DNA of 64,000 nucleotides from Candidatus Babeliales bacterium (lineage in GTDB: Bacteria > Babelota > Babeliae > Babelales > RVW-14): the NCBI GenBank assembly GCA_019749895.1, contig JAIEPG010000002.1, forward strand, positions 66,244-130,243. Reading direction: 5' to 3'. This document shows, one piece after another, positions 3,725 through 14,665 of this stretch (the stretch's first letter is position 1; every line of letters starts with the position of its first letter). The notes beneath the pieces are model-generated. The model saw only the letters and a program-made list of their open reading frames with translations. It made no database searches and was not told where the DNA came from. The translations under genes and the position numbers were made by a program.

Positions 3725-4447
3725 TTATTCAGCTACTACTTCTTCCCGAGAATCACTGTCATCACTCACGCTTTCTTGAGTAACAGGAACCTCTGGCTGT
3801 TCTACCACAGATCGAAACGGCACCGCCGCTGGCACAAAACCAGCTGGGCGTTCTTGTGGAACAATCATTTGTTGGGGCTCAACTGTTGGCACAAGATTTG
3901 TTTGCTCTTCCTGTGGTGCAAATTTTTCAGCATAATAACGCTCAATAAATTGTTCTTGAGCTTTTGTTTCAATTGAATGAGGTCTCAGTCTGCGAACCAA
4001 TGCAATAGCATCTTGCGGTTTCATTGCTTTTTTTGCAACAAACCAACAGGCCAAAACGGTGCCCGTTCTGCCCTGGCCAGCAGTACAATGAACCACAGCT
4101 CCCTTATTTTTTGCTTGAACTTCATCTACTTTAGTAACGAAAGTTTCTATTTGTTCAACTGTTGGAGTATGAAAATCTTTAATTGGCAGATGCAAAACTT
4201 CAATAGCAACATCGTCTGGCACAGTAAGACCTGCAAGCATACTTTCGGTTAATGAAACAATAAGTCCAATACCCTGATCTTGCAAAGCATAAAAATTACC
4301 AACATTGGTTGGACGAGCCATGCCAGCAAGACGCGCATTTTCCTCGGTATTTACAAACGAAAAATTGCGCGGCAAAGAATTGGCAGCACTGTGCAACGCA
4401 CCGGTTAAGCCAAAAATAGCGAACAAAGAGAAAAACTGCTTTTTCAT
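3725..4447 (-). CDS. exported dual-specificity (DUSP23/VHZ-like) Cys-based protein phosphatase
   Basis: CX5R P-loop VVHCTAGQGRTGTVLACWFV, followed by RRLRPHSIETKAQEQF as in DUSP23-type enzymes. I prefer the internal ATG at 4447 (MKKQFFSLFAIFGLTGALHSAANS, signal-like) over the ORF-track start at 4543. Confidence 0.8.
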   Translation of the reverse strand: MKKQFFSLFAIFGLTGALHSAANSLPRNFSFVNTEENARLAGMARPTNVGNFYALQDQGIGLIVSLTESMLAGLTVPDDVAIEVLHLPIKDFHTPTVEQIETFVTKVDEVQAKNKGAVVHCTAGQGRTGTVLACWFVAKKAMKPQDAIALVRRLRPHSIETKAQEQFIERYYAEKFAPQEEQTNLVPTVEPQQMIVPQERPAGFVPAAVPFRSVVEQPEVPVTQESVSDDSDSREEVVAE

Positions 4448-4520
4448 AGTAAAATTCCCACACATAACAACAGACCAAATCAACCTCACTACTAAGTTTA
4501 ACATACTTTTGATTTTTAAG

Positions 4521-4557
4521 AAAAAGGGGCTTTTTTTAAACAAAAAGCCCCTTTTTC
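4521..4557 (-). terminator. rho-independent terminator of the 4569..11036 gene
   Basis: AAAAAGGGGCTTTTT / AAAAAGCCCCTTTTT inverted repeat with flanking T-runs on the minus strand, 12 nt after the stop. Confidence 0.65.
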
Positions 4558-4568
4558 TTGAGATATTA

Positions 4569-7500
4569 CTAAATTAAGCCATGATAAGAACTATCTAACA
4601 CATTCTTCAGCTGCCCGCCTTTTAAAGTTTGATTTATAAATGGCTTTCTTGCATTTTCAAGCAACTGGGCCTGTGCCTGAGTATAAATCTTGTTTTGTAT
4701 ATTTTTAACTAAAAGATCATAGTTCTTTTGAGCAAGATAAGAATAATTATCCCCATTGTTTGCACTAGAAACCGATGTGTACTGAACAGCATAATTTTGT
4801 AAAAAAACATCATTTTTATAGCCAGCTTGCAACAAAATATGTACCAAGATAAGACTTAAACGGCGCAAACTACCACTAGTTTGTAGTCGAGCAAAAACTT
4901 CGTCCGGACTATCAAGTAAAACCGGCACCGAATCAAAAACCCTTTGAAGATTTTGCCGCTGTTCTGGCGTTGCTCCAGGAGCATTGTTGTCGGCAAAATG
5001 GCTAGAAAGGTCAGCCAATAAAGCTGGTTTCGTGGGATATAAATCACCAGGTGCAGACGCACCAGAATTATAATACGTCCATGGGCTTGGTGGTGGCGGC
5101 GTATCAAGATCTACTTTGTATGCTTTGATACTATTTTCTTGCTCTTCCGTTTCTATTGAGTGTGGACGCTTGAGCCTCACTTCATCAATCGCTTCTTGGG
5201 CCGTTATATTTTTTGATTTAACAAGCCAACAAGCAAGCATAGTCCCCGTCCGTCCATAGCCACCAGCACAATGAACAACAAGCGGCTGATTGGCTTCAAC
5301 ACTTGCCAGAGTTATAAATTGTTTAATTTGTGCAAGCGTTGGCGGCGCAAAGTCTTGAATTGGGATTCTTACGTTGCGCAGCGTACTCCAGCCTGGCACA
5401 CCCAAAGCACTGGTAAACCATTCCTGTGGCAATTGCGTCTCATTTGTCAACGAAACCAGATTCTTAACACCTTCAAATTGTAATGCTTTAATGTACGCAA
5501 AAGAATAAGGTAAAGCCATGCCACCTACCCGGTGAGGACTATCGTCAATCCAAGAAAAATTATTCCCTTCAAGAAGCTCTTTTAATCGCGCTTGCAAGTT
5601 CACTGCATCACAAAACTCTAATAGTTCAATCACATTTTTTAAAACAAGCTGATTGCCATAAATTTGTGCATTAAATTCGTCCCAAAGCTTATCTTTTGTT
5701 ACTTCATTAACACTTGTTGCCAAAGGGTAAAAAGCCTTGAAAACTTGTACCCCATTTTGACCAGACAAAACAAGCTCCATGTTTTCATCAAAGAACTTTT
5801 TCTTAGAGTTTTGAATCTCGGTATCAGTCCCGGCCAATTTCGCACCCGCAGGCCCAACAAATGAGGCTACTGATGAACCCGCAGCGTTAAGATTCATGAG
5901 CTGATCATAGACCACAACTGCTTGCGCTGCTTCTTTAACTTGTGCTGCTCCTGCTCGCCCCGGCTGCTGCGCTTGTTGCAGAAATGTTTGCAGATTAGTA
6001 TTTGCAACTGTGGAATAGGGAGAACCTCCCAAGCCACCAGAACTATTCACCGACTTAAGGCTCGCAAAGAAATCAGGACGCTTCTTAATTAAGTTAACAA
6101 AGTCTGTCCAAATATCTGCAGAAAATTTAGAATAATAAGTTTTTGTAACAATCGTATTAAATATCTGCTGTGCTATTGCATGTTTAAATGATCCAATACC
6201 TCGAAGATTATCCATTTGTCTGGCATGATGATCATTTTCACGCCGCGCTAACGTTTGATAAATATTTTCTTCAGATATTCCATAATATTCATCAGCTGGA
6301 ACGTCATGAGGATAGGCAGGACTTCTATTGCCTCTAAAGAAAAAGATATCGGCATTAGCAGCATAAGACGTCTTACTCAGCAATTTATCCATAATCGCTA
6401 GAGTACCCTTCCAATATTTATCGCCAGCGGTTCCTGCTGGAATATACTCAAGTACACGGTCAAGGTACATATGCGGGTAGCTTTTTTCAGATAATGATTT
6501 TTCAATTATTTTCTTTGCAAAGCTCTCTTTTAAAGCAAGTGTTTTTAACAAATTATCAACAATAAAAGTATACGTTGTGTTTTCTTTTGTTATCATGGAG
6601 TCACTGCCATCAGTAGCATATGAAAGTCCGTTGTGGCCAGTTGGACCATCATTGGCTTGACGCATAGCCTTTGCCAAAATATTTATTGTAGGGAGATATG
6701 GAGCAAGCTTGAATCGCGCAATATCTTCTTTGGTCACCGTCCACCAAAAAGTAACCGCCTTCTTTTCTGGCGTAACTTCAACTTGTTTAAGATCTAATGC
6801 CCATGCAACCGCTTGAGCATAGTCACCAATTTTATAGAAACGACCCCACTCGTTTTCGCCACTCGTTCTGCAACCAAAGCGAGCCGTGTCAGTTTTTTTG
6901 TTGTATTCAAGAAACAGAGTTGCGCTATGAGACCTCAACGGATAATTATACTTATAACCAAGAGTACCTTTACTAAACGAAAGCCCCATCAACGTTGCAT
7001 GATTACCATGCGTACCAAAACCTACTTTCTTAATGCTATCAATTTCTGCAAGCAAGTCTTTGAGCAACTGCGGCAACGCTGGAGCATCTTTACTTGCCAG
7101 CGCCACAACAGAAGTCTTACCCAAAAAGAAACTTGTTACATTAATCAAACTTTGATGAATAAAGGTAAAAATATCTTCAAACGTGTTGACAGCTTGAAGA
7201 GAACCTCCTGCTTTATTACCAATCACAACAAGCGCTACGTTAAAATTGTTAGAGTTATCAAGTTGAGCAGCATCGTAAAGCTTGGCTGCTCCAGATAAGC
7301 TTGTTGTTGCGGCTGCTAACTTAACAGTCACGCCAGTATCAAAAGCGGTACCGTAATGCCCACCAAGTTCTTGATACGGACTAATGCCGGTAAGCAGGCG
7401 TAAATATTCATCTAGCATTGTTTTAAAGGTGAAAAGTTTGTTGTCGCGCGTGTTAAGTTTAGGATTTGCAGCACTAGTAACCACTTCATACTCACTACTT

Positions 7501-10500
7501 GCTTTAACTGCCTTTATTGACTGATCGAACGTATCAATAAATAAATCTAACAGTGACAACACCGCCACTTTACCTATATCGCCAGCATTTTTGTATGATT
7601 GTACAAACGCAGGGTCAATAAGCTCAGTAACAATACCAGTAAGCAGCAACCATTGCTTATCAAACTTTTTACGCTGAGCAAATATTTCAGGCTTTAAAAA
7701 TTTAACACGCGCAATTTTCTCATTTACCGTATTCAACAGAGCTTTATCGTTATTGAATGCCGTTACAAGAGAGATCAGAACTTGCTGAACTGGTAGGGCT
7801 TGTGTTAAATCTTTTTCCTTTGCCGGTTCAAAAAAATCAGTGTGCAGCCAAACGGTAAGCAACCCAAGCTTACCCAAGGTTGCTACCGCTTCACCAAAAT
7901 CTTTTTTGTGCTGCTTGCCACCAACATCACCCACCTTGGCAACAAACTGAATCCACTTGTCACTCACTACTTGATTAAGTGCTTCGTCTGCTATTTTTGC
8001 ATACTGAATAACTTTACCTTCTTGTTTGATTTCAGGCTCAACAAGCCCTTTCTCTTTGAGTCTTTGAATAGCAATCGCTTCAGGTTTTAAAGTACGCAAA
8101 ACAAAATTGGCAAGTGAGAATGCATTAAGTACCTGATCCGCCTCTGGCTGCTGAAACAATAATGCTTCTAAGAAACGTACCGCAAATAATCGTTTAATAT
8201 AATCGTCTGTCCCTTTTACAAAATTACGTGTTTGCAAAATATGATGTCCAACCTTAGCCAAGGTATATTTAAACAAAGCTATTTTGTTAGTTAAATCTTG
8301 ATCTAGCGTTATTGATTTTACATAAAATTCCATACGCTGTTTAATAACCATCAAAAGAACCAAAAAGCTTATCCGTAGATTCTTTTCATCGGCACCTTGT
8401 GCCACAGTGTCAAGCATAGTCATAATTTGCGGAGCCAATGCTGCTTGGTTTTTAGTCGATTTAAATGGGGCAAGGAAAGCTTGAAGTTCCGCTGCGCTCA
8501 CTCCTTCTTTAAGTTCTAACTCTAATTCTTTAAGTAAATCATCAACCTTTGTAGCATCAAAATCTGCCGGTGCAATGCTAGAAAGCAACGGCGATATTGG
8601 ATAATTTTTCCAACCTTCAAGAATATCATTGGTATTTTTTAAATCTTGCAACGTTTGCTTTGAATCCCACTGAACCACCAGCCCCTGTTGTGGGTCGACT
8701 AAAAACTTTGCACCAGGCTCACTGATCGCATCGATAAGTTTATTAATACCGGTCATAAAAATAACCGGCTTTACTGCTGTACGAAATTGTGTTCCCTCAT
8801 GCGATGTTGGTGGCGCATGCTGCCCCACCACAACGCAAGCTACACGTTCTTTTGTCTTGCTATGCATGTACGTATCAAAAGCCTCACCCATAGTACTTTT
8901 AACAATTATTTGGTTGCCATCAATCAGTCGAACAGCACCATCGGCTGGAATAATTGTTTCTCCCTTAAAAACTTCTCCCGTTAACGCTGCAGGGTTGGCA
9001 ATGTATGACGGCTCTCCCTGATTTGGATTATGCGTAATTGGACGAGCTTGCACCAAGTACAATGTTGAATCATTTCTATCAATAACAAATTCAACGTCCA
9101 TTGGCTTGAGGTAATATTCTTCAAGAACATTTGCCAACAGCTTGAGCATAAGTCCTTCGTACGATGTCAGTACTGGGCTCATGGCAAGATCTGGCGGATT
9201 ATCGCGATCTTCAAGTTTAGAATCTTGGTTAAGAGAAGGAAATTTCCTAAATGGCTTTGGTCGCACAATTGCATACATTTTGTCAAAATCGCTCAGATAG
9301 TAGGTATCAACACCAACAAGACTGTTGACCACCCCTTCATTGTGCCCATACGCGGCATCAATAGCCACAATGCCAGTTGAACGAGCCTTGACAGAATAAT
9401 CCCAATGCTCATTCAAGAGATCTTTTTTTGCAATCCCCCCGCCCGGCTCTTCGGTAAACATAACACCACATGCTGGTAATCTTCTTTCTATCATTTTGTT
9501 GTCAGGCAAAACTGGCTCTATTTGCACAGCAACATAATTGTTTGGGTTTGCAACAGATGCAGCTGTTAGAACACGCACGGCGAGGACTATAGCTTCTGGT
9601 GTAGGCGCAACATTTTGAAAGTTTGTACCATTAGTAAGCGATACCTTAACCTGCCATCCTCCTTTTTGAGCTGCTTTTAACATACCATCAAGATCAGACT
9701 CTTGTGTGTTAAAAAATGCATCCAATGAATTTTTGCTTGTAGTTTTAAAGGTATCCCATTTTTCAAACAAGTTAGGACCAGGTTTATTGAACGCTGAACG
9801 CACATTTTTTGAACGAATACCACGAATACGCTCTCCCACCATTCTTTGAATAAGCACTGGCGTAAATGGCTCATCAAATAACTCAGGATCACCACCAATC
9901 AAACGTTGCATAAAGGATTTTTCACTAAAATATGAACCAACTACCACACCCATTGCCAGCAAAATTTCTGACAGCTGCGGCGCAACGTTTGCAACACTTT
10001 CATTACCCCCGGCGTTTGCAAGCTTGTCGGTATCTTCTTTCCCGGTACTACGAACCATTAATGAACTTTTGAAACGTTTTATTTTTTCAAGTGTTTCATT
10101 AATGCCAACTTCAAATTGAGCATCAAAATCAAAGATACCAGAAACAACGTCAGGCTCTGTTGCAGCTGTATTAAAAATGGCCATAACATCATTTTCTAAG
10201 ACCTTTAAATTATCCAAAAACGTTTTTGAAAAATTTTGATCGCGCTTAAATTGATCTTGCGCAGCCTTGTCAAAACGCGCTATAAAATCCGCCCAACGAG
10301 TTTTTATATCAAATCCATTTTTTAGCAAAAATGCTTTTATAGAATCTGACGAAATACCCTTAAACTCTGGCACACGTATTTTTAACTCATAAGAACCTGT
10401 TTTGTCGGCAATCAAGTTAGTCAAAATGCTTAATGCTCGAGATATCTTTTCAAGCTCTTGCAGATTTCCTGTTTTGTAACCATAGCCCTGAACTTCAGCA

Positions 10501-11036
10501 AAAACTCGCAATGCTTCTTTGTCGTGAGGGGCAATAGCAGCAATCAAGCTGGCAATCAATTGCGAAAGTTCTTTGTCGATATCTCTAAACGGTGCTGTAT
10601 CATACGCAATAAAAGCAGCAGCGTCTGGGTTCTTTTCTTCTTCTTCATCTGATTCCCAAAACATGCCCTTGAAAGCACCCCAGATCTTCCCTGTTAAAGA
10701 TTCTTCTTGCTGCTCTTGCGCTTTTAAATCCTTTACATATTGTCTCAGCGGCTTTTTGCTTTTAACAAATTCTTGGGCCTTGGTAAAACCGGTATTGTAC
10801 TGACCCCACAACGCCTGCTCTTTGGCTTTTCTTGCTGCTTCTTTTAAATTTTTCTCCAATTCCTGCTTTTCTCTCAAATCAGTTAACGCTTGTCCCAACT
10901 GACCAAGTTTTGCTTTTAAGGCGGTAAGTCCACCCTTCAAGTTGTCTAGTGGGTTTGTGGCAGCTGTAAATGCATGATTATTAATAAAAAATAGCAAGAG
11001 AAAACACAGCACGTACTGTCTCTGTTTTTTATTCAT
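4569..11036 (-). CDS. giant exported multidomain protein (2,155 aa): PPDK_N-like ATP-grasp, phospho-His swivel domain, about 1,050 aa unknown, DUSP23-like phosphatase
   Basis: Signal-like MNKKQRQYVLCFLLLFFINNHAFTA, then the shared helix NPLDNLKGGLTALKAKLGQLGQAL. ATP-grasp motifs (about 9033-10064): LMVRSTGKED, GVMFTEEP, AAYGHNEGVVNSLVGVDTYYL, PMDVEFVIDRNDSTLYLVQARPIT. Swivel domain (about 8742-8984): VACVVVGQHAPPTSHEGTQFRTAVKPVIF, with the T-S-H His codon at 8799-8801. Phosphatase domain (about 5112-5549): LVVHCAGGYGRTGTMLACWLV and LKRPHSIETEEQE, with the Cys codon at 5268-5270. Confidence 0.8.
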   Translation of the reverse strand: MNKKQRQYVLCFLLLFFINNHAFTAATNPLDNLKGGLTALKAKLGQLGQALTDLREKQELEKNLKEAARKAKEQALWGQYNTGFTKAQEFVKSKKPLRQYVKDLKAQEQQEESLTGKIWGAFKGMFWESDEEEEKNPDAAAFIAYDTAPFRDIDKELSQLIASLIAAIAPHDKEALRVFAEVQGYGYKTGNLQELEKISRALSILTNLIADKTGSYELKIRVPEFKGISSDSIKAFLLKNGFDIKTRWADFIARFDKAAQDQFKRDQNFSKTFLDNLKVLENDVMAIFNTAATEPDVVSGIFDFDAQFEVGINETLEKIKRFKSSLMVRSTGKEDTDKLANAGGNESVANVAPQLSEILLAMGVVVGSYFSEKSFMQRLIGGDPELFDEPFTPVLIQRMVGERIRGIRSKNVRSAFNKPGPNLFEKWDTFKTTSKNSLDAFFNTQESDLDGMLKAAQKGGWQVKVSLTNGTNFQNVAPTPEAIVLAVRVLTAASVANPNNYVAVQIEPVLPDNKMIERRLPACGVMFTEEPGGGIAKKDLLNEHWDYSVKARSTGIVAIDAAYGHNEGVVNSLVGVDTYYLSDFDKMYAIVRPKPFRKFPSLNQDSKLEDRDNPPDLAMSPVLTSYEGLMLKLLANVLEEYYLKPMDVEFVIDRNDSTLYLVQARPITHNPNQGEPSYIANPAALTGEVFKGETIIPADGAVRLIDGNQIIVKSTMGEAFDTYMHSKTKERVACVVVGQHAPPTSHEGTQFRTAVKPVIFMTGINKLIDAISEPGAKFLVDPQQGLVVQWDSKQTLQDLKNTNDILEGWKNYPISPLLSSIAPADFDATKVDDLLKELELELKEGVSAAELQAFLAPFKSTKNQAALAPQIMTMLDTVAQGADEKNLRISFLVLLMVIKQRMEFYVKSITLDQDLTNKIALFKYTLAKVGHHILQTRNFVKGTDDYIKRLFAVRFLEALLFQQPEADQVLNAFSLANFVLRTLKPEAIAIQRLKEKGLVEPEIKQEGKVIQYAKIADEALNQVVSDKWIQFVAKVGDVGGKQHKKDFGEAVATLGKLGLLTVWLHTDFFEPAKEKDLTQALPVQQVLISLVTAFNNDKALLNTVNEKIARVKFLKPEIFAQRKKFDKQWLLLTGIVTELIDPAFVQSYKNAGDIGKVAVLSLLDLFIDTFDQSIKAVKASSEYEVVTSAANPKLNTRDNKLFTFKTMLDEYLRLLTGISPYQELGGHYGTAFDTGVTVKLAAATTSLSGAAKLYDAAQLDNSNNFNVALVVIGNKAGGSLQAVNTFEDIFTFIHQSLINVTSFFLGKTSVVALASKDAPALPQLLKDLLAEIDSIKKVGFGTHGNHATLMGLSFSKGTLGYKYNYPLRSHSATLFLEYNKKTDTARFGCRTSGENEWGRFYKIGDYAQAVAWALDLKQVEVTPEKKAVTFWWTVTKEDIARFKLAPYLPTINILAKAMRQANDGPTGHNGLSYATDGSDSMITKENTTYTFIVDNLLKTLALKESFAKKIIEKSLSEKSYPHMYLDRVLEYIPAGTAGDKYWKGTLAIMDKLLSKTSYAANADIFFFRGNRSPAYPHDVPADEYYGISEENIYQTLARRENDHHARQMDNLRGIGSFKHAIAQQIFNTIVTKTYYSKFSADIWTDFVNLIKKRPDFFASLKSVNSSGGLGGSPYSTVANTNLQTFLQQAQQPGRAGAAQVKEAAQAVVVYDQLMNLNAAGSSVASFVGPAGAKLAGTDTEIQNSKKKFFDENMELVLSGQNGVQVFKAFYPLATSVNEVTKDKLWDEFNAQIYGNQLVLKNVIELLEFCDAVNLQARLKELLEGNNFSWIDDSPHRVGGMALPYSFAYIKALQFEGVKNLVSLTNETQLPQEWFTSALGVPGWSTLRNVRIPIQDFAPPTLAQIKQFITLASVEANQPLVVHCAGGYGRTGTMLACWLVKSKNITAQEAIDEVRLKRPHSIETEEQENSIKAYKVDLDTPPPPSPWTYYNSGASAPGDLYPTKPALLADLSSHFADNNAPGATPEQRQNLQRVFDSVPVLLDSPDEVFARLQTSGSLRRLSLILVHILLQAGYKNDVFLQNYAVQYTSVSSANNGDNYSYLAQKNYDLLVKNIQNKIYTQAQAQLLENARKPFINQTLKGGQLKNVLDSSYHGLI

Positions 11037-11171
11037 TTCTTATCCTCAGCTTAGATTTAATTTTTTGGATTATGCGATTTACCAAAACTAAGAGTAAGTA
11101 ATTAAAAAAATGAATATCAATAATTGAGAAAGATAAGCTCAATTATTCAGCAAAAAGAAGAAAATTCTCAC

Positions 11172-11199
11172 AAAAAAAAGACCCCCAATTTCTTGGGGA
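11172..11199 (-). terminator. orphaned rho-independent terminator next to the phosphatase-tail remnant
   Basis: CCCCAA-TTTC-TTGGGG hairpin. On the minus strand a T8 run (A8 at 11172-11179) follows it. It lies 22 nt downstream of the remnant stop codon at 11221-11223. Confidence 0.55.
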
Positions 11200-11220
11200 T
11201 CTCTAAAAAATCAAAGTAAA

Positions 11221-11275
11221 TTATTTGGCTAGGCGCGATTGGTAGAACGTGCGTACAAATTGCTCTTGTTCAAAA
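11221..11275 (-). pseudogene. 3'-terminal remnant of a DUSP23-like phosphatase gene (duplicate of 11981..12035)
   Basis: About 47 of 54 nt are identical by eye to the 3' end of the intact gene at 11981. The remnant translates FEQEQFVRTFYQSRLAK* against FEQEQFVRTFYKSRLAK* in the intact gene. No upstream coding continuation exists. Confidence 0.7.
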
Positions 11276-11337
11276 GGGCTATTTTATTAAAAAAAGGCTA
11301 TTTTCAAGACTATTTTTAACAAAAAATAACTTTAAAA

Positions 11338-11364
11338 TTGACCTGGGTACCAAATTGTGGTACC
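11338..11364 (+). promoter_or_regulatory. candidate hicAB promoter with operator palindrome
   Basis: TTGACC at 11338-11343. A perfect inverted repeat GGTACCA-aattg-TGGTACC at 11346-11364 overlaps the spacer and the -10 region (TACCAT/TAAAAT). It lies about 40 nt upstream of the hicA start. Confidence 0.4.
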
Positions 11365-11404
11365 ATAAAATTAGTAAAAAAGAATAGATAGCCAAGGACT
11401 GTGA

Positions 11405-11659
11405 GTGAATAAAAAGCATAAAAAAACTTTAGAGCTCATTTTTAAGTCGCCACCGCAGCCTAACGTGCGATGGAGCGATATTGAATCTCTCCTCAGAAAT
11501 TTAGGAGCTGAAATAAGTGAGGGCAATGGGTCACGGGTGCGTATCATACTCAATGATGTTAAAGCAGTATTTCACCGACCACATCCAAAGCCCGAAACAG
11601 ACAGAGGCGCCTTGGTATCAATGAAAAGGTTCTTACAAAACGCGGGGATTAGTTTATGA
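11405..11659 (+). CDS. hicA: HicA-family mRNA interferase toxin
   Basis: 84 aa with a GTG start. Family-typical KTLELIF..VRWSDIESLLRNLGAEISEGNGSRVRIILN..AVFHRPHP. A 4-nt ATGA overlap joins it to the downstream antitoxin gene. Confidence 0.85.
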   Translation: MNKKHKKTLELIFKSPPQPNVRWSDIESLLRNLGAEISEGNGSRVRIILNDVKAVFHRPHPKPETDRGALVSMKRFLQNAGISL

Positions 11660-11979
11660 ATAATTTAATGCACTATAAAGGCTATTATGGCCACGTTACC
11701 TTTGATAATGAAGCAGAAATCTTTCATGGCGAAGTTATTGGACTGAAAGACGTTATCACCTTTCAAGGCAAAAGCGTTCAAGAGCTCAATAAAGCTTTTA
11801 AAGACTCTGTTAATGATTATCTTGCGTGGTGCCAAGAACGCAACGAAAAACCTGAGAAAACTTTTTCAGGCAATCTACGTATTCGCATTCCAGCAGAGCT
11901 TCATGCCATTCTAACCAATGAGGCTGCGTCTCACGGCCTCAGCCTCAATTCATACATTATCGAAAAGTTACAAAAATAA
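11656..11979 (+). CDS. hicB: HicB-family antitoxin with C-terminal RHH-like DNA-binding tail
   Basis: 107 aa. YKGYYGHVTFDNEAEIFHGEVIGLKDVITFQGKSVQELNKAFKDSVNDYLAWC, then FSGNLRIRIPAELHAILTNEAASHGLSLNSYI. Translationally coupled to hicA. Confidence 0.85.
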   Translation: MNNLMHYKGYYGHVTFDNEAEIFHGEVIGLKDVITFQGKSVQELNKAFKDSVNDYLAWCQERNEKPEKTFSGNLRIRIPAELHAILTNEAASHGLSLNSYIIEKLQK

Positions 11980-11980
11980 A

Positions 11981-12520
11981 CTATTTAGCCAGGCGCGACT
12001 TGTAAAACGTGCGCACAAATTGCTCTTGTTCAAACGTACTAATCGACGGATTGCGCAGCTCACGAACTTTACGGATTGCCGAGTCGGCATCAATGCCTTC
12101 GTTGGCAATTAACCAACAGGCAAGCAACGTGCCCGTGCGGCCCATGCCGTGTTTGCAATGCACAACAACGCCTTTGTCTTGCTGTTGAACCGCTTTAGCT
12201 TCACGCAAAAACTCTTCAGCTTGTGCAATAGTTGGCACGTGCAGATTGTAAATGGGCAGATGCAGGGTTTTGATACCAGGATGCTCAATAAAATATTGTG
12301 GTGGCAAGGGGTTTTTGGTCAGCGTAACAATCAACCCAACATTGTGCTCGTGCAGGTAGGCAATGTGCTCTTTGCACGCGGGTTGTGCCATACCGGCCAT
12401 TTTATTGTTGGTTTTTTCACAGATCCAAGAAAAATACTGTGGGCTAATTGAAGATGACAAATTATGGGCAATGTTCATAACAGCAACGCTCAGCATTAAT
12501 AAAAACAGTGTTCTTTTCAT
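11981..12520 (-). CDS. exported DUSP23-like Cys-based protein phosphatase
   Basis: P-loop VVVHCKHGMGRTGTLLACWLI, then LRNPSISTFEQEQF. I prefer the ATG at 12520 (MKRTLFLLMLSVAVMNIAHN), which has GGAG upstream, over the ORF-track start at 12592. Its stop is 1 nt from the convergent hicB stop. Confidence 0.8.
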   Translation of the reverse strand: MKRTLFLLMLSVAVMNIAHNLSSSISPQYFSWICEKTNNKMAGMAQPACKEHIAYLHEHNVGLIVTLTKNPLPPQYFIEHPGIKTLHLPIYNLHVPTIAQAEEFLREAKAVQQQDKGVVVHCKHGMGRTGTLLACWLIANEGIDADSAIRKVRELRNPSISTFEQEQFVRTFYKSRLAK

Positions 12521-12711
12521 AAAGGGCTCCTTGCAAAGCCCTATCTTAACAAAAAGGTGGTGGGTGTGCAAAAGCCCCCTCCCTCGATACATTTTTTCGC
12601 TTCTTCCTACGCCCTATCCTTCGACAAGCTTACACCTTCGCTCTTCATAGCTTCGGTGCACAGGCAGGACGAACGGGCTTCGGAGGACGGGTCGCTCAAA
12701 AACACTCGGGA

Positions 12712-12958
12712 TGAGCACCCTTCGAGACGCTCTACGAGCTCCTCAGGGAAAACGGATGGAAGTAAGCCTCGGCCATCCCTAAGCCTATTGAAAAACGTGG
12801 GAAAACGGATGGAAGTAAGACCCAATCATTCTGAGTCTGTTAAAAAACGTGGAAAAACGGGGAATATAGAATGTCTTCTGGTTTTAACTTTTTTTACTTC
12901 AATAGTTTTTAGTTCCCGTTCGGCCTGAGGAGCAACTCGGAGAGTTGCGTCTCGAAGG
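12712..12958. repeat. GC-rich intergenic repeat locus 1: two inverted repeat units of about 45 nt flanking short tandem repeats
   Basis: The unit CACCCTTCGAGACG..CTCCTCAGGGAAAACGG sits at 12715-12757. Its reverse complement CCGTTCGGCCTGAGGAGC..GCGTCTCGAAGG sits at 12915-12958. Between them GGGAAAACGGATGGAAGTAAG occurs twice (12746 and 12799), with a degenerate third copy. The same unit recurs at 34013-34128. Confidence 0.8.
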
Positions 12959-14665
12959 CTACAGTCCAGGCTCGTCGGATTCTTGCACGTAGGCAACTGC
13001 AAGCACTTCATCGATGGTAGTTATGCCTTCTTGAATTAACCGTACGCCATCCAGACCCAACAGCGTCATGCCGGCTTTAAGCGCCTGGTCACGCACCACA
13101 TTTGCATCGGCTCGTTGAATAATCAGGCGGGCAATGGCATCGTCAACCTCCATAACTTCAAACACCGCACAACGGCCACGGTAGCCCGTTTGTAGGCACT
13201 CGTCACAACCAACAGGCTTATAAAAAGTTATGCTGGCAGCTTGGGCAGCCGTTATGCCAAGACGGCGAATAGCTTCAGCATCGGGCTGGTAAACTTGGCG
13301 ACACTCAAGACACAAGGTACGTACCAAGCGTTGTGAGATAACCATAATTAATGAAGAAGCAATAAGAAACGGCTCAACGCCCATGTCGATCAACCGCGTA
13401 ATGGTTGCCGGTGCGCTGTTGGTGTGAATGGTGCTTAACACCAAATGACCGGTCAAGGCAGCTTGTGTTGCAATTTCTGCCGTTTCACGGTCGCGAATTT
13501 CACCAATCAGCACCACATCGGGGTCTTGTCGCAAAATAGATCGTAAAGAAACGGCAAACGTTAGCCCTGTTTTTTCATTAACCGGAACTTGATTCACACC
13601 ATGCACGGTATATTCCACCGGATCTTCAACGGTAATAATGTTAACGTCGGGCTGGTTTAAGCGATTTAAAATGGCATAGAGCGTAGACGTTTTACCAGAA
13701 CCGGTTGGACCGCTCACCAAAATAATGCCGTTAGGGCGTTCAATGGTACGCAGCATCAACTTTAAATCTCGCTCTGCCATACCAATTTTTTCTAAATCTT
13801 TAGTGCCCTTACCTTTGTCGAGCAAACGCATAACCACACGCTCACCAAAATTGCAAGGCAAAATGGACACACGAATATCAAATGCACGGTCGCCCACTTT
13901 AATTTGAATACGCCCATCTTGCGGTATCCGCTTTTCGGCAATGTTGAGATGCGCCATAATTTTTATACGCGAAACAATAGCGCCCTGGTAGCGCTTGGGC
14001 GGAATAACGCGGGAATATAAATTACCATCAATGCGGTAACGCACACGCAACTCTTTTTCATACGGTTCAATGTGAATATCTGACGCACCTTCTTTTACCG
14101 CCTGAAACATAACGTGGTTGACCAGTTTTACAATGGGCGCTTCGTTGGCCATTTCCATAATATCTTTGTCTTCAATGGAACTAAAACCGAACTCATCTTC
14201 GCCTTCGGTAAGCTCTTCCATCATTTCTTTACTACTTTCTAGCGGGTAGTATTTGTTGATGGCGTCCATAATAACTAAATCGGTAGAAACGGCATAACGC
14301 ACATCACCGGCCATGAGTAGTGAAAGATCGTCCAACGGCTGCAAGTCGTGCGGGTTGGCGGTTACCAACGTTTTTTGGCCTTCAAACATGATAGGAATTA
14401 CCATGTGCTGACGCAAAAATTTGAGTGGCACTTTGCGCAACAGCTCAAGGTCGGCCATTTGTTCGGTAATCAGCTGGATGAAGGGAAGCTGCATCTGCTC
14501 GCCCAGCGCACGAGCAACGTCATGCTTTGAAGCAAAGCCACGCTCAATAAGAATAGTACCCAGCAATTTGCCGGTCGATTTTTGTTCTTTTAAACAATCA
14601 TCAAGCTGCTCTTTGGTAACAATTCCAAGATCGATAAGAATATCACCAATTTTTTTTCTCAGCAT
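12959..14665 (-). CDS. GspE/PilB-family type II secretion / type IV pilus assembly ATPase
   Basis: N-terminal T2SSE_N-like domain (GDILIDLGIVTKEQLDDCL..LGEQMQLPFIQL). Walker A GPTGSGKTST. Asp/His boxes. Tetracysteine CLECR..CDEC. I prefer the start at 14665 (MLRKKIGD), with AAGGAG 9 nt upstream, over 14683. Confidence 0.9.
   Translation of the reverse strand: MLRKKIGDILIDLGIVTKEQLDDCLKEQKSTGKLLGTILIERGFASKHDVARALGEQMQLPFIQLITEQMADLELLRKVPLKFLRQHMVIPIMFEGQKTLVTANPHDLQPLDDLSLLMAGDVRYAVSTDLVIMDAINKYYPLESSKEMMEELTEGEDEFGFSSIEDKDIMEMANEAPIVKLVNHVMFQAVKEGASDIHIEPYEKELRVRYRIDGNLYSRVIPPKRYQGAIVSRIKIMAHLNIAEKRIPQDGRIQIKVGDRAFDIRVSILPCNFGERVVMRLLDKGKGTKDLEKIGMAERDLKLMLRTIERPNGIILVSGPTGSGKTSTLYAILNRLNQPDVNIITVEDPVEYTVHGVNQVPVNEKTGLTFAVSLRSILRQDPDVVLIGEIRDRETAEIATQAALTGHLVLSTIHTNSAPATITRLIDMGVEPFLIASSLIMVISQRLVRTLCLECRQVYQPDAEAIRRLGITAAQAASITFYKPVGCDECLQTGYRGRCAVFEVMEVDDAIARLIIQRADANVVRDQALKAGMTLLGLDGVRLIQEGITTIDEVLAVAYVQESDEPGL

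What the first reader, a model, noticed from the sequence alone, without database searches (positions are those of the whole stretch)
11172..12040. hicAB cassette inserted into the 3' end of a phosphatase gene, leaving a duplicated gene tail and an orphaned terminator
Seen:
- The last about 54 nt of the intact phosphatase gene (11981-12034) recur at 11221-11274, with about 47 of 54 nt identical by eye.
- The copy still reads FEQEQFVRTFYQSRLAK-stop, against ..YKSRLAK-stop in the intact gene.
- So 6 of the 7 nucleotide differences are synonymous or fall in the stop codon.
- The copy is followed by a good hairpin plus T8 terminator at 11172-11199.
- The intact gene has no terminator. Its stop is 1 nt from the convergent hicB stop.
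- The roughly 700 bp between the two copies holds a promoter-like TTGACC, a perfect GGTACCA-n5-TGGTACC palindrome, and translationally coupled hicA/hicB.

Inference:
- hicAB arrived as a compact cassette by recombination at the gene tail.
- The mostly synonymous divergence suggests the two tails come from different alleles or paralogs. It argues against decay of a simple target duplication.
- Read-through from hicAB would be antisense to the phosphatase gene.
Basis: partly seen in the sequence, partly recalled or inferred. Interest (0 to 1): 0.6.

Follow-up and report, generated by a model that had tools for sequence, protein, structure and literature searches.

The report
hicAB cassette inserted with gene-tail duplication
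A 0.7-kb toxin-antitoxin (hicAB) cassette with no mobility gene was inserted at the end of a phosphatase gene of an amoeba-associated Babeliales bacterium and copied the gene's last ~60 bases; this insertion mode was previously described for restriction-modification genes, and it recurs for this cassette family across the order.

Summary
Window 11213-11281 and 11973-12041 are direct repeats (69 nt, 84%; 54-nt coding tail 47/54; perfect 20-nt core). They bracket a 706-bp unit holding a promoter, a palindrome, hicA (PF07927) and hicB (PF05534). A congeneric genome (G001) has the empty site: terminator, single tail and phosphatase are contiguous, with no hicAB.

Five of 6 coding differences between the tails are synonymous (P~0.002 under neutrality), all 7 orphan-vs-G001 differences are synonymous, and the in-gene copy carries most of the unique changes.

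The pattern recurs. Of 47 related hicAB loci in Babeliales, 7 are flanked by locus-specific direct repeats of 21-152 nt, against 1 of 400 control positions. Three have verified empty sites, and three duplicate the 3' end of a convergent gene. Cassette ends are not conserved and no recombinase is present.

This matches 'insertion with long target duplication', described for restriction-modification systems (Nobusato 2000; Furuta 2010), here with a type II TA cargo. Most likely route: single-crossover entry of a circular cassette-plus-repeat molecule from a sister strain, then retention by addiction. The mechanism is inferred, not shown.

This scan has already found the same pattern for other TA families on other DNA, so this is a good, well-documented example and not a first.

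The parts
11169..11204 (-). Orphaned intrinsic terminator of the phosphatase gene: a 12-bp stem, a 4-nt loop and a T8 run. It now lies about 780 nt from the gene's stop.
   Evidence: In G001 a hairpin plus T-run sits at the same place, directly after the phosphatase stop.
11213..11274 (-). Left copy of the duplicated target. It is the displaced (orphan) 3' tail of the phosphatase gene. The coding remnant 11221-11274 still reads FEQEQFVRTFYQSRLAK*.
   Evidence: The peptide is identical to the G001 tail, with 7 of 54 nt different, all synonymous.
11275..11980 (+). Inserted unit of 706 bp containing a promoter/operator, hicA and hicB. It has no recombinase gene and no terminal inverted repeats.
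   Evidence: Absent from the G001 empty site..
11338..11366 (+). Sigma-70-like promoter TTGACC-17-TACCAT with a TG extension.
   Evidence: Among the 30 cassettes that carry the operator-like palindrome, 21 have TTGAC within 30 nt upstream of the palindrome's right half-site.
11346..11364 (+). Perfect palindrome GGTACCA-N5-TGGTACC overlapping the -10 element. It is the candidate HicB (RHH) operator.
   Evidence: An equivalent palindrome lies 31-57 nt upstream of hicA in 30 of 47 related cassettes, and its half-sites co-vary.
11405..11659 (+). hicA toxin gene (84 aa, GTG start, AAGGA ribosome-binding site 6 nt upstream).
   Evidence: PF07927, E 8.9e-12, full-length profile match.
11656..11979 (+). 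hicB antitoxin gene (107 aa), overlapping hicA by ATGA. It has an RHH-type C-terminus.
   Evidence: PF05534, E 2.5e-18, with weak Arc/FitA RHH hits.
11973..12034 (-). Right copy of the duplicated target. It is the 3' tail now in frame with the phosphatase gene (11981-12034, ...FYKSRLAK*). Positions 11973-11980 overlap the hicB stop.
   Evidence: It differs from the G001 tail at 11 of 54 nt and carries 5-6 unique changes.
11981..12520 (-). Exported dual-specificity phosphatase gene (179 aa from MKRTLF...; the open frame runs on to 12592).
   Evidence: PF22784, E 4e-26. Database proteins start at this Met.

Best explanation
A self-contained hicAB type II toxin-antitoxin cassette of about 706 bp (own promoter, palindromic operator, translationally coupled hicA-hicB) was inserted at the 3' end of an exported dual-specificity phosphatase gene in a Candidatus Babeliales (Dependentiae) genome. 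The insertion duplicated 54-62 nt of the target. One copy keeps the phosphatase gene intact. The other copy is left as an orphan next to the gene's original terminator. No recombinase or defined element ends are involved, so this is 'insertion with long target duplication'. The two copies diverged while both were still coding. The most likely route is therefore that the cassette entered as a (probably circular) molecule that already carried a phosphatase tail from a sister strain. It would then have integrated by a single homologous crossover within the 20-nt identical core (natural insertion-duplication, Campbell type). The direct repeats would normally delete such an insert again. Loss of hicAB should be punished by the stable HicA toxin, and this would explain why addiction modules are the cargo seen in this configuration. 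What is shown: the insertion, the duplication, the empty site, recurrence in the family and the coding-type divergence. What is inferred: the circular intermediate, RecA dependence and addiction-based retention.
For: The empty site in congener G001 shows both window copies collapsing onto one tail next to the terminator. hicAB was not found in G001 or G002. The domains are confirmed. The tail DNA has only two copies in the genome. Divergence between the copies is of coding type: 5 of 6 coding differences are synonymous, all 7 orphan-vs-G001 differences are synonymous, and 5-6 unique changes lie on the in-gene copy against 1-2 on the orphan (P~0.002 each). The pattern recurs: 7 of 47 related hicAB loci in the order have locus-specific flanking repeats of 21, 27, 32, 45, 62, 98 and 152 nt at 733-894 nt spacing, against 1 of 400 control positions. 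Three short perfect repeats are unique to their two flanking positions. Two further empty sites were verified, G210 vs G211 and G186 vs G185/G188. Cassette ends are not conserved. The HicAB tree mixes host families. The class is described in the literature for RM systems, with the same criteria (PMC2853133).
Against: No circular form or donor strain was found. The closest HicB in 5.8 billion proteins is below 90% identical, and the closest in the order is 72%. The allele argument rests on 54 nt. The two copies also share 5 states that differ from G001, so the donor must have been a close relative. The perfect repeats at other loci fit a de novo duplication equally well. The model also needs an earlier illegitimate event that first placed hicAB next to a phosphatase tail. 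A 10-nt similarity between the hicB 3' end and the native sequence after the stop (CAAAAATAAA) hints at a microhomology joint. Toxicity of this HicA is untested, and it has no sequence-detectable solved homologue.
Confidence: 0.6

Rival explanations
1. The duplication arose de novo in this lineage. hicAB DNA was joined into a staggered break, or copied in by replicative template switching, which duplicated the recipient's own 54-62 nt. The two copies then diverged in place.
For: Other cassettes of the family have perfect or near-perfect repeats, as expected just after such an event. Cassette ends are not conserved. The hicB end and the native sequence share a possible 10-nt microhomology at the right junction. 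The two copies share 5 differences from G001.
Against: Divergence in place predicts more changes, mostly non-synonymous, on the unconstrained orphan. Observed are 1-2 changes on the orphan against 5-6 on the in-gene copy, and 5 of 6 coding differences are synonymous (P~0.002 each).
Confidence: 0.22
2. The cassette is the remnant of a site-specific integrative element (prophage or island) that carried a substitute 3' end for its target gene, as e14 and phage 21 do at icd. The integrase and the rest of the element were later deleted, leaving only hicAB between attL and attR.
For: The geometry is the same: the native tail is displaced to the far end, the element-borne surrogate tail differs mostly at synonymous sites, and there is an identical 20-nt core. 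The icd comparison is from my own knowledge.
Against: Only 706 bp lie between the repeats, with no integrase remnant. The neighbours are the giant exported protein and the phosphatase. Six other cassettes of the same family sit between unrelated repeats of 21-152 nt at unrelated sites, which does not fit one att specificity.
Confidence: 0.06
3. The insertion predates the split of G000 and G001, and the G001 'empty site' is secondary. In this reading hicAB was lost in G001 by recombination between the two repeats. This concerns timing only and is compatible with either entry mechanism.
For: Direct repeats allow precise excision. The G001 tail matches the orphan (left) copy at the distal positions, as a left-right recombinant would. 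The 13% divergence between the copies is not less than the 7.8% G000-G001 divergence of the gene body.
Against: It needs a gain plus a loss that escapes post-segregational killing. G002 also lacks hicAB. The orphan shows no decay: the frame is intact and the peptide is identical to G001.
Confidence: 0.12

Closest known systems
[quoted passage not shown] 2000, Gene 259:99; Furuta, Abe & Kobayashi 2010, PMC2853133)
   Same: A small addiction-type gene unit is inserted with no transposase or integrase. The flanking direct repeats are tens to hundreds of bp long and differ from locus to locus. An empty site in a related genome aligns to the repeat. The repeats often span a gene's stop, so the target gene stays intact.
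   Different: The cargo is a classical type II TA system with an RNase-type toxin, not a DNA-cutting RM system. The authors' suggestion that the mechanism relies on element-made double-strand breaks therefore cannot apply. Here the two repeat copies differ in an allele-like manner. Here one cassette family shows the pattern repeatedly across a whole order.
HicAB type II toxin-antitoxin systems (Pfam PF07927 / PF05534)
   Same: The gene order is toxin first. The genes are translationally coupled. HicB has an RHH DNA-binding C-terminus. A palindromic operator overlaps the promoter.
   Different: This is an 84-aa HicA subfamily with no sequence-detectable solved structure. Activity is untested.
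Integrative elements that replace the 3' end of their target gene (e14 / phage 21 at icd of E. coli; from my own knowledge)
   Same: The native tail is displaced, a surrogate tail with mostly synonymous differences takes its place, and there is an identical core.
   Different: There is no integrase, the insert is only 0.7 kb, and the family has no common att sequence.
Laboratory insertion-duplication (Campbell-type integration of a circular suicide construct through a short homologous fragment; from my own knowledge)
   Same: It yields exactly this product: the insert is flanked by two copies of the homologous fragment, each a chimera of the donor and recipient alleles.
   Different: Here the event is natural. 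The circle is hypothetical, and its homology would be only 21-152 nt.

Membership tests
Insertion with long target duplication (criteria of Furuta et al. 2010) | The inserted segment contains the complete addiction gene set and is shorter than 20 kb. | tested here: met
   The 706-bp insert holds hicA and hicB.
Insertion with long target duplication (criteria of Furuta et al. 2010) | The flanking direct repeat is longer than 30 bp and is not a dispersed repeat. | tested here: met
   The repeat is 54-69 nt and has only two copies in the genome.
Insertion with long target duplication (criteria of Furuta et al. 2010) | A related genome has an empty site in which one copy of the repeat aligns to both flanking copies. 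| tested here: met
   G001 locus L007.
Insertion with long target duplication (criteria of Furuta et al. 2010) | No mobility gene (integrase or transposase) lies in the insert or next to it. | tested here: met
   The ORFs and Pfam hits of the insert and its neighbours show only hicA, hicB, the phosphatase, the giant exported protein and a GspE-like ATPase.
HicAB type II TA | A HicA_toxin domain and a HicB antitoxin domain are encoded by adjacent genes, toxin first. | tested here: met
   PF07927 at 45 bits (cut-off 27) and PF05534 at 66 bits (cut-off 21), with an ATGA overlap.
HicAB type II TA | An autoregulatory operator is bound by HicB. | tested here: inconclusive
   The palindrome is conserved in position, with co-varying half-sites, in 30 of 47 cassettes. 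Binding was not tested.
HicAB type II TA | HicA has toxic RNase activity (catalytic histidine) that HicB neutralises. | not testable with these tools
   No solved homologue was found by sequence. The catalytic residue was not mapped.
Site-specific integrative element with a surrogate gene end | An integrase gene lies in the element, and all family members share one att core. | tested here: not met
   There is no integrase. The repeats at the 7 loci are unrelated in sequence and length.
Transposon / IS / MITE | The element has terminal inverted repeats and a short target duplication of fixed length. | tested here: not met
   No inverted repeats lie at the insert ends. Duplications range from 21 to 152 nt.
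Integron gene cassette | The cassette has an attC recombination site at its end and sits in an array next to intI/attI. | not tested
   No array context or integrase is present nearby. attC was not searched with a dedicated model.

The most novel reading that the evidence does not exclude
Addiction cassettes, both TA and RM, may share a recombinase-free life cycle. In it, recombination between the long flanking repeats releases a circle made of the cassette plus one repeat. The circle then re-enters the homologous empty site of another strain by a RecA-type single crossover, with the repeat serving as a portable, locus-specific 'att'. Post-segregational killing makes the otherwise unstable insertion persist. 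The allele-type divergence of the two tails here would then be a direct footprint of such an inter-strain re-entry. The Babeliales hicAB family (7 of 47 loci repeat-flanked) would be a natural system in which to test it.
Probability: 0.3. Interest if true: 0.7.

Novelty: new variant of a known kind. Interest (0 to 1): 0.5.

Why it matters
How chromosomal toxin-antitoxin modules move without mobility genes is poorly documented. Reviews describe long-target-duplication insertion only for restriction-modification systems. The authors of that work suspected element-made DNA breaks. A HicA/HicB cassette shows the same signature seven times in one bacterial order, with three verified empty sites. 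This argues that the mechanism belongs to the host (homologous or microhomology-mediated recombination) and that addiction explains which inserts survive. The allele-like divergence of the two tails offers a rare clue to the entry route. For the local biology, the insertion separates an exported phosphatase gene from its terminator and sets up convergent transcription with hicAB. The value is tempered because this scan has already reported the same pattern for other TA families on other DNA.

Tried and rejected
The contexts of the extra contigs carrying the exact HicB (9), HicA (5) and phosphatase (3) could therefore not be read.
- The metagenome scan with the phosphatase found no close allele; the best hit was 40% identical.
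- The genome-contig scan with HicB found only relatives of 52-55% identity in other phyla.
- The 5.8-billion-protein search found only the three known lineages of the phosphatase. The donor allele remains unsampled.
- A PDB sequence search with HicA found nothing usable.
- No empty site was found for the G024 cassette (L028), because its left flank is not conserved in congeners.
- The G207 cassette (L063) lies in a multi-copy gene family and has a third copy of its repeat nearby. It is a weaker case.
- The G210-vs-G211 comparison is too diverged (76%) to tell which repeat copy is native.
- I rejected the paralog origin of the second tail.
- I rejected an assembly artefact, because the copies are 13% diverged and the K-type tail appears in independent assemblies.
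- I rejected a transposon (no terminal inverted repeats).
- I rejected a dispersed-repeat explanation for the short perfect repeats.
Full report
**1. What is in the sequence**

- The window lies in a 1.56-Mb, 16-contig genome (G000, contig C16). A database entry for the near-identical protein of a congener names the organism Candidatus Babeliales bacterium.
- On the minus strand, an exported dual-specificity phosphatase gene ends at 11981. Its ORF is 11981-12592 and the likely start is the Met at 12520. It matches PF22784 at E 4e-26.
- One base away, on the plus strand, hicB ends at 11979.
- hicA (11405-11659, PF07927, E 9e-12) and hicB (11656-11979, PF05534, E 2.5e-18, with weak RHH hits) overlap by ATGA.
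- Upstream lies a TTGACC-17-TACCAT promoter-like site with a TG extension (11338-11366). It is overlapped by the perfect palindrome GGTACCA-N5-TGGTACC (11346-11364).
- The repeat finder reports a 69-nt direct repeat at 84% identity, 11213-11281 vs 11973-12041, with 760-nt spacing. Its core is a perfect 20-mer (11255-11274 / 12015-12034).
- The left copy still translates on the minus strand to FEQEQFVRTFYQSRLAK*. Next to it is a strong minus-strand terminator: stem 11204-11177 plus T8, -19.6 kcal/mol, z -3.6.
- The tail DNA has exactly two copies in the genome. The other phosphatase domains in the genome are only 37% identical in protein.

**2. The empty site exists**

- Two congeneric genomes carry the orthologous phosphatase: G001 at 92% protein identity and G002 at 78%.
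- In G001 (L007), window 10000-11274 aligns to L007 261-1551 and window 11971-12531 aligns to L007 1488-2047. The two window copies therefore collapse onto a single tail.
- The order in G001 is giant-gene start, hairpin plus T-run, tail, phosphatase, with no hicAB.
- A DNA search and a HicB protein search found no hicAB in G001 (58% complete) or G002 (95% complete).
- The insertion is thus 760 bp: 706 bp of new DNA (11275-11980) plus a second copy of 54-62 nt of the target.

**3. The two tails behave like alleles**

- Over the 54 coding nucleotides, the orphan (L) and the in-gene copy (R) differ at 7 sites. L and G001 differ at 7 sites, and R and G001 at 11.
- Codon by codon, the L-R differences are 4 synonymous changes, TAA/TAG, and two changes in one codon (CAA Gln / AAG Lys).
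- So 5 of the 6 differences in sense codons are at synonymous positions. With 10.7 synonymous and 40.3 non-synonymous sites, at most one non-synonymous change among six has P~0.002 under neutral drift.
- All 7 L-G001 differences are synonymous, and the L peptide equals the G001 peptide.
- Taking G001 as reference, R carries 5-6 unique changes and L carries 1-2. After a simple self-duplication the unconstrained orphan should change faster, and the binomial P for the observed split is ~0.002.
- L and R share five states that differ from G001. Four of these G001 states are also found in G002. The second allele therefore came from a close relative of G000, not a distant one.
It rests on 54 nt and should be read as suggestive to strong, not as proof.
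- If G001 lost the cassette secondarily through repeat recombination, the polarity argument fails. The synonymous-excess argument does not.

**4. The pattern recurs in the cassette family**

- HicB relatives at E<=1e-20 occur in 64 of 261 genomes of the order and in 41 of 145 genera. They are usually single-copy, and the best match is 72% identical.
- I oriented 47 loci that carry both genes. For each, I compared the 350 nt upstream of hicA with the 350 nt downstream of hicB.
- Seven loci have a significant direct repeat bracketing the cassette:

| Locus (genome) | Repeat | Spacing (nt) |
|---|---|---|
| Own window (G000) | 62 nt | 760 |
| L042 (G210) | 152 nt, ~93% identical | 894 |
| L096 (G186) | 98 nt, 5 mismatches | 806 |
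| L063 (G207) | 45 nt, 1 mismatch | 745 |
| L059 (G193) | 32 nt, perfect (a hairpin terminator) | 769 |
| L050 = L028 (G024) | 27 nt, perfect | 733 |
| L048 (G167) | 21 nt, perfect | 836 |

- All other loci scored at or below the shuffle range of 10-15.
- In G000, only 1 of 400 random positions with the same geometry scored 21 or more.
- The three shortest repeats occur only at their two flanking positions in their genomes.
- The repeats are unrelated to each other. The DNA between each repeat and the genes is not conserved at the ends.
- In L042 the repeat is the last 137 nt of a convergent 422-aa gene plus 15 nt downstream.
- In L096 the repeat is the 3' end of the convergent 475-aa gene, which I read as gltX from its N-terminal motifs. 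The stop codon of that gene now lies in cassette DNA.
- Empty sites with a single repeat copy and no hicAB were verified for G210 against G211 and for G186 against G185 and G188.
- In G185, an 84%-identical hicAB sits 14.5 kb away from the equivalent site.
- A maximum-likelihood tree of HicA+HicB shows that the window's own family is hardly clustered: 5 label changes for 7 rows, against a shuffled mean of 6.7. One well-supported clade mixes four families. The cassettes have therefore moved between lineages.

**5. The cassette carries its own control region**

- In 30 of 47 cassettes, a 7-nt inverted repeat with a 4-6-nt spacer lies 31-57 nt upstream of hicA. Its right half-site runs into a -10-like ...CAT/TAT.
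- The half-sites co-vary. Examples are GGTACCA/TGGTACC, GGTATCA/TGATACC, GGTGCCA/TGGCACC and GATACCA/TGGTATC.
- This is comparative support for a dimeric operator, presumably for the RHH domain of HicB. Binding is untested.

**6. Comparison with what is known**

- A full-text search led to Furuta, Abe & Kobayashi 2010 (PMC2853133) and, through it, to Nobusato et al. 2000.
[quoted passage not shown] The features are no other mobile element, repeats longer than 30 bp, an empty site in a relative, and repeats that often span a start or stop so the target gene survives. They suggest a mechanism tied to double-strand breakage, and a cycle of invasion, amplification and release.
- A later review mentions this mode only for RM systems (PMC3874152).
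- All four operational criteria are met here.
- The difference is the cargo. HicA is an RNase-type toxin, so breaks made by the element cannot be the common factor. What RM and TA share is post-segregational killing, which would protect a repeat-flanked, and hence deletion-prone, insert. This last point is inference.
- The geometry also resembles e14 and phage 21 at icd (my own knowledge). However, there is no integrase, and the family has no common att.

**7. Most likely mechanism**

- The product is two chimeric copies of a short homologous segment around the insert, with allele-type differences distal to an identical core. A single crossover between the chromosome and a circle carrying hicAB plus a phosphatase tail from a sister strain would give exactly this.
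- Such circles could arise by recombination between the repeats of an already filled site.
- The first event at a new site still needs an illegitimate joint. The hicB 3' end (…CAAAAATAA-A) resembles the native sequence just after the phosphatase stop (TCAAAAATAAA in G001), a possible 10-nt microhomology.
- I put about 0.9 on 'insertion with long target duplication, no recombinase'. I put about 0.45 on the circle and single-crossover route specifically.

**8. Consequences for the locus (inferred)**

- The phosphatase gene has lost its terminator. Its transcripts should now run antisense through hicBA to 11204-11169.
- hicAB has no terminator-like site before the phosphatase gene.

**9. Relation to earlier scan notes**

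- After reaching this reading, I queried the scan's notes.
- At least eight followed-up findings on other genomes describe TA cassettes (HepT/MntA, MNT/HEPN, TacAT, ParDE, VapBC, HicBA-like, RHH-PIN) inserted with long target duplication, and they name the same closest known class.
- These are unchecked AI notes, not evidence. They do show that this scan has already found the pattern on other DNA.
- What this case adds is the allele-type divergence of the repeats and the order-wide survey of one cassette family.

**10. Limits**

- No donor strain or circular form was found.
- Most genomes are MAGs.
- Toxicity, operator binding and transcription are untested.

Noticed in passing
window 12580-12960: A GC-rich segment of about 380 bp lies between the phosphatase start and the GspE-like ATPase stop. 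G001 has only about 7 nt at that position. The segment contains inverted copies of a ~40-nt unit that has at least 25 dispersed copies on 7 contigs of the genome. It looks like a REP/MITE-like element and is a second indel at this locus.
   Followed up: partly
L042 1254-1499 (G210): In the cassette with the 152-nt repeat, hicA appears interrupted: the ORF stops after 50 aa, yet tblastn aligns residues 1-82 in one frame. hicB is intact. This would fit toxin decay in an older insertion.
   Followed up: no
L029 1429-2171 (G012): Here hicB ends 4 nt before a convergent tRNA-Leu(taa) followed by tRNA-Cys. No flanking repeat was detected.
   Followed up: no
L028 2016-2105 (G024): The 30 nt just inside the right end of this cassette resemble (77%) the 30 nt that begin at the end of the right repeat. 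This hints at an older, nested duplication or at donor-derived flank.
   Followed up: no
L063 / G207 contig C3 16855-16927: A third, 99%-identical copy of the 73 nt that include this cassette's repeat lies about 1.9 kb away. The adjacent 1.2-kb gene has four paralogs at 77-81% identity in the genome. This repeat-flanked case is therefore less clean.
   Followed up: partly
window 3725-4543, 4569-11036, 11981-12592: Three DSP-phosphatase domains lie within 9 kb, all on proteins with signal-like N-termini. Congener G001 has the same set.
   Followed up: no
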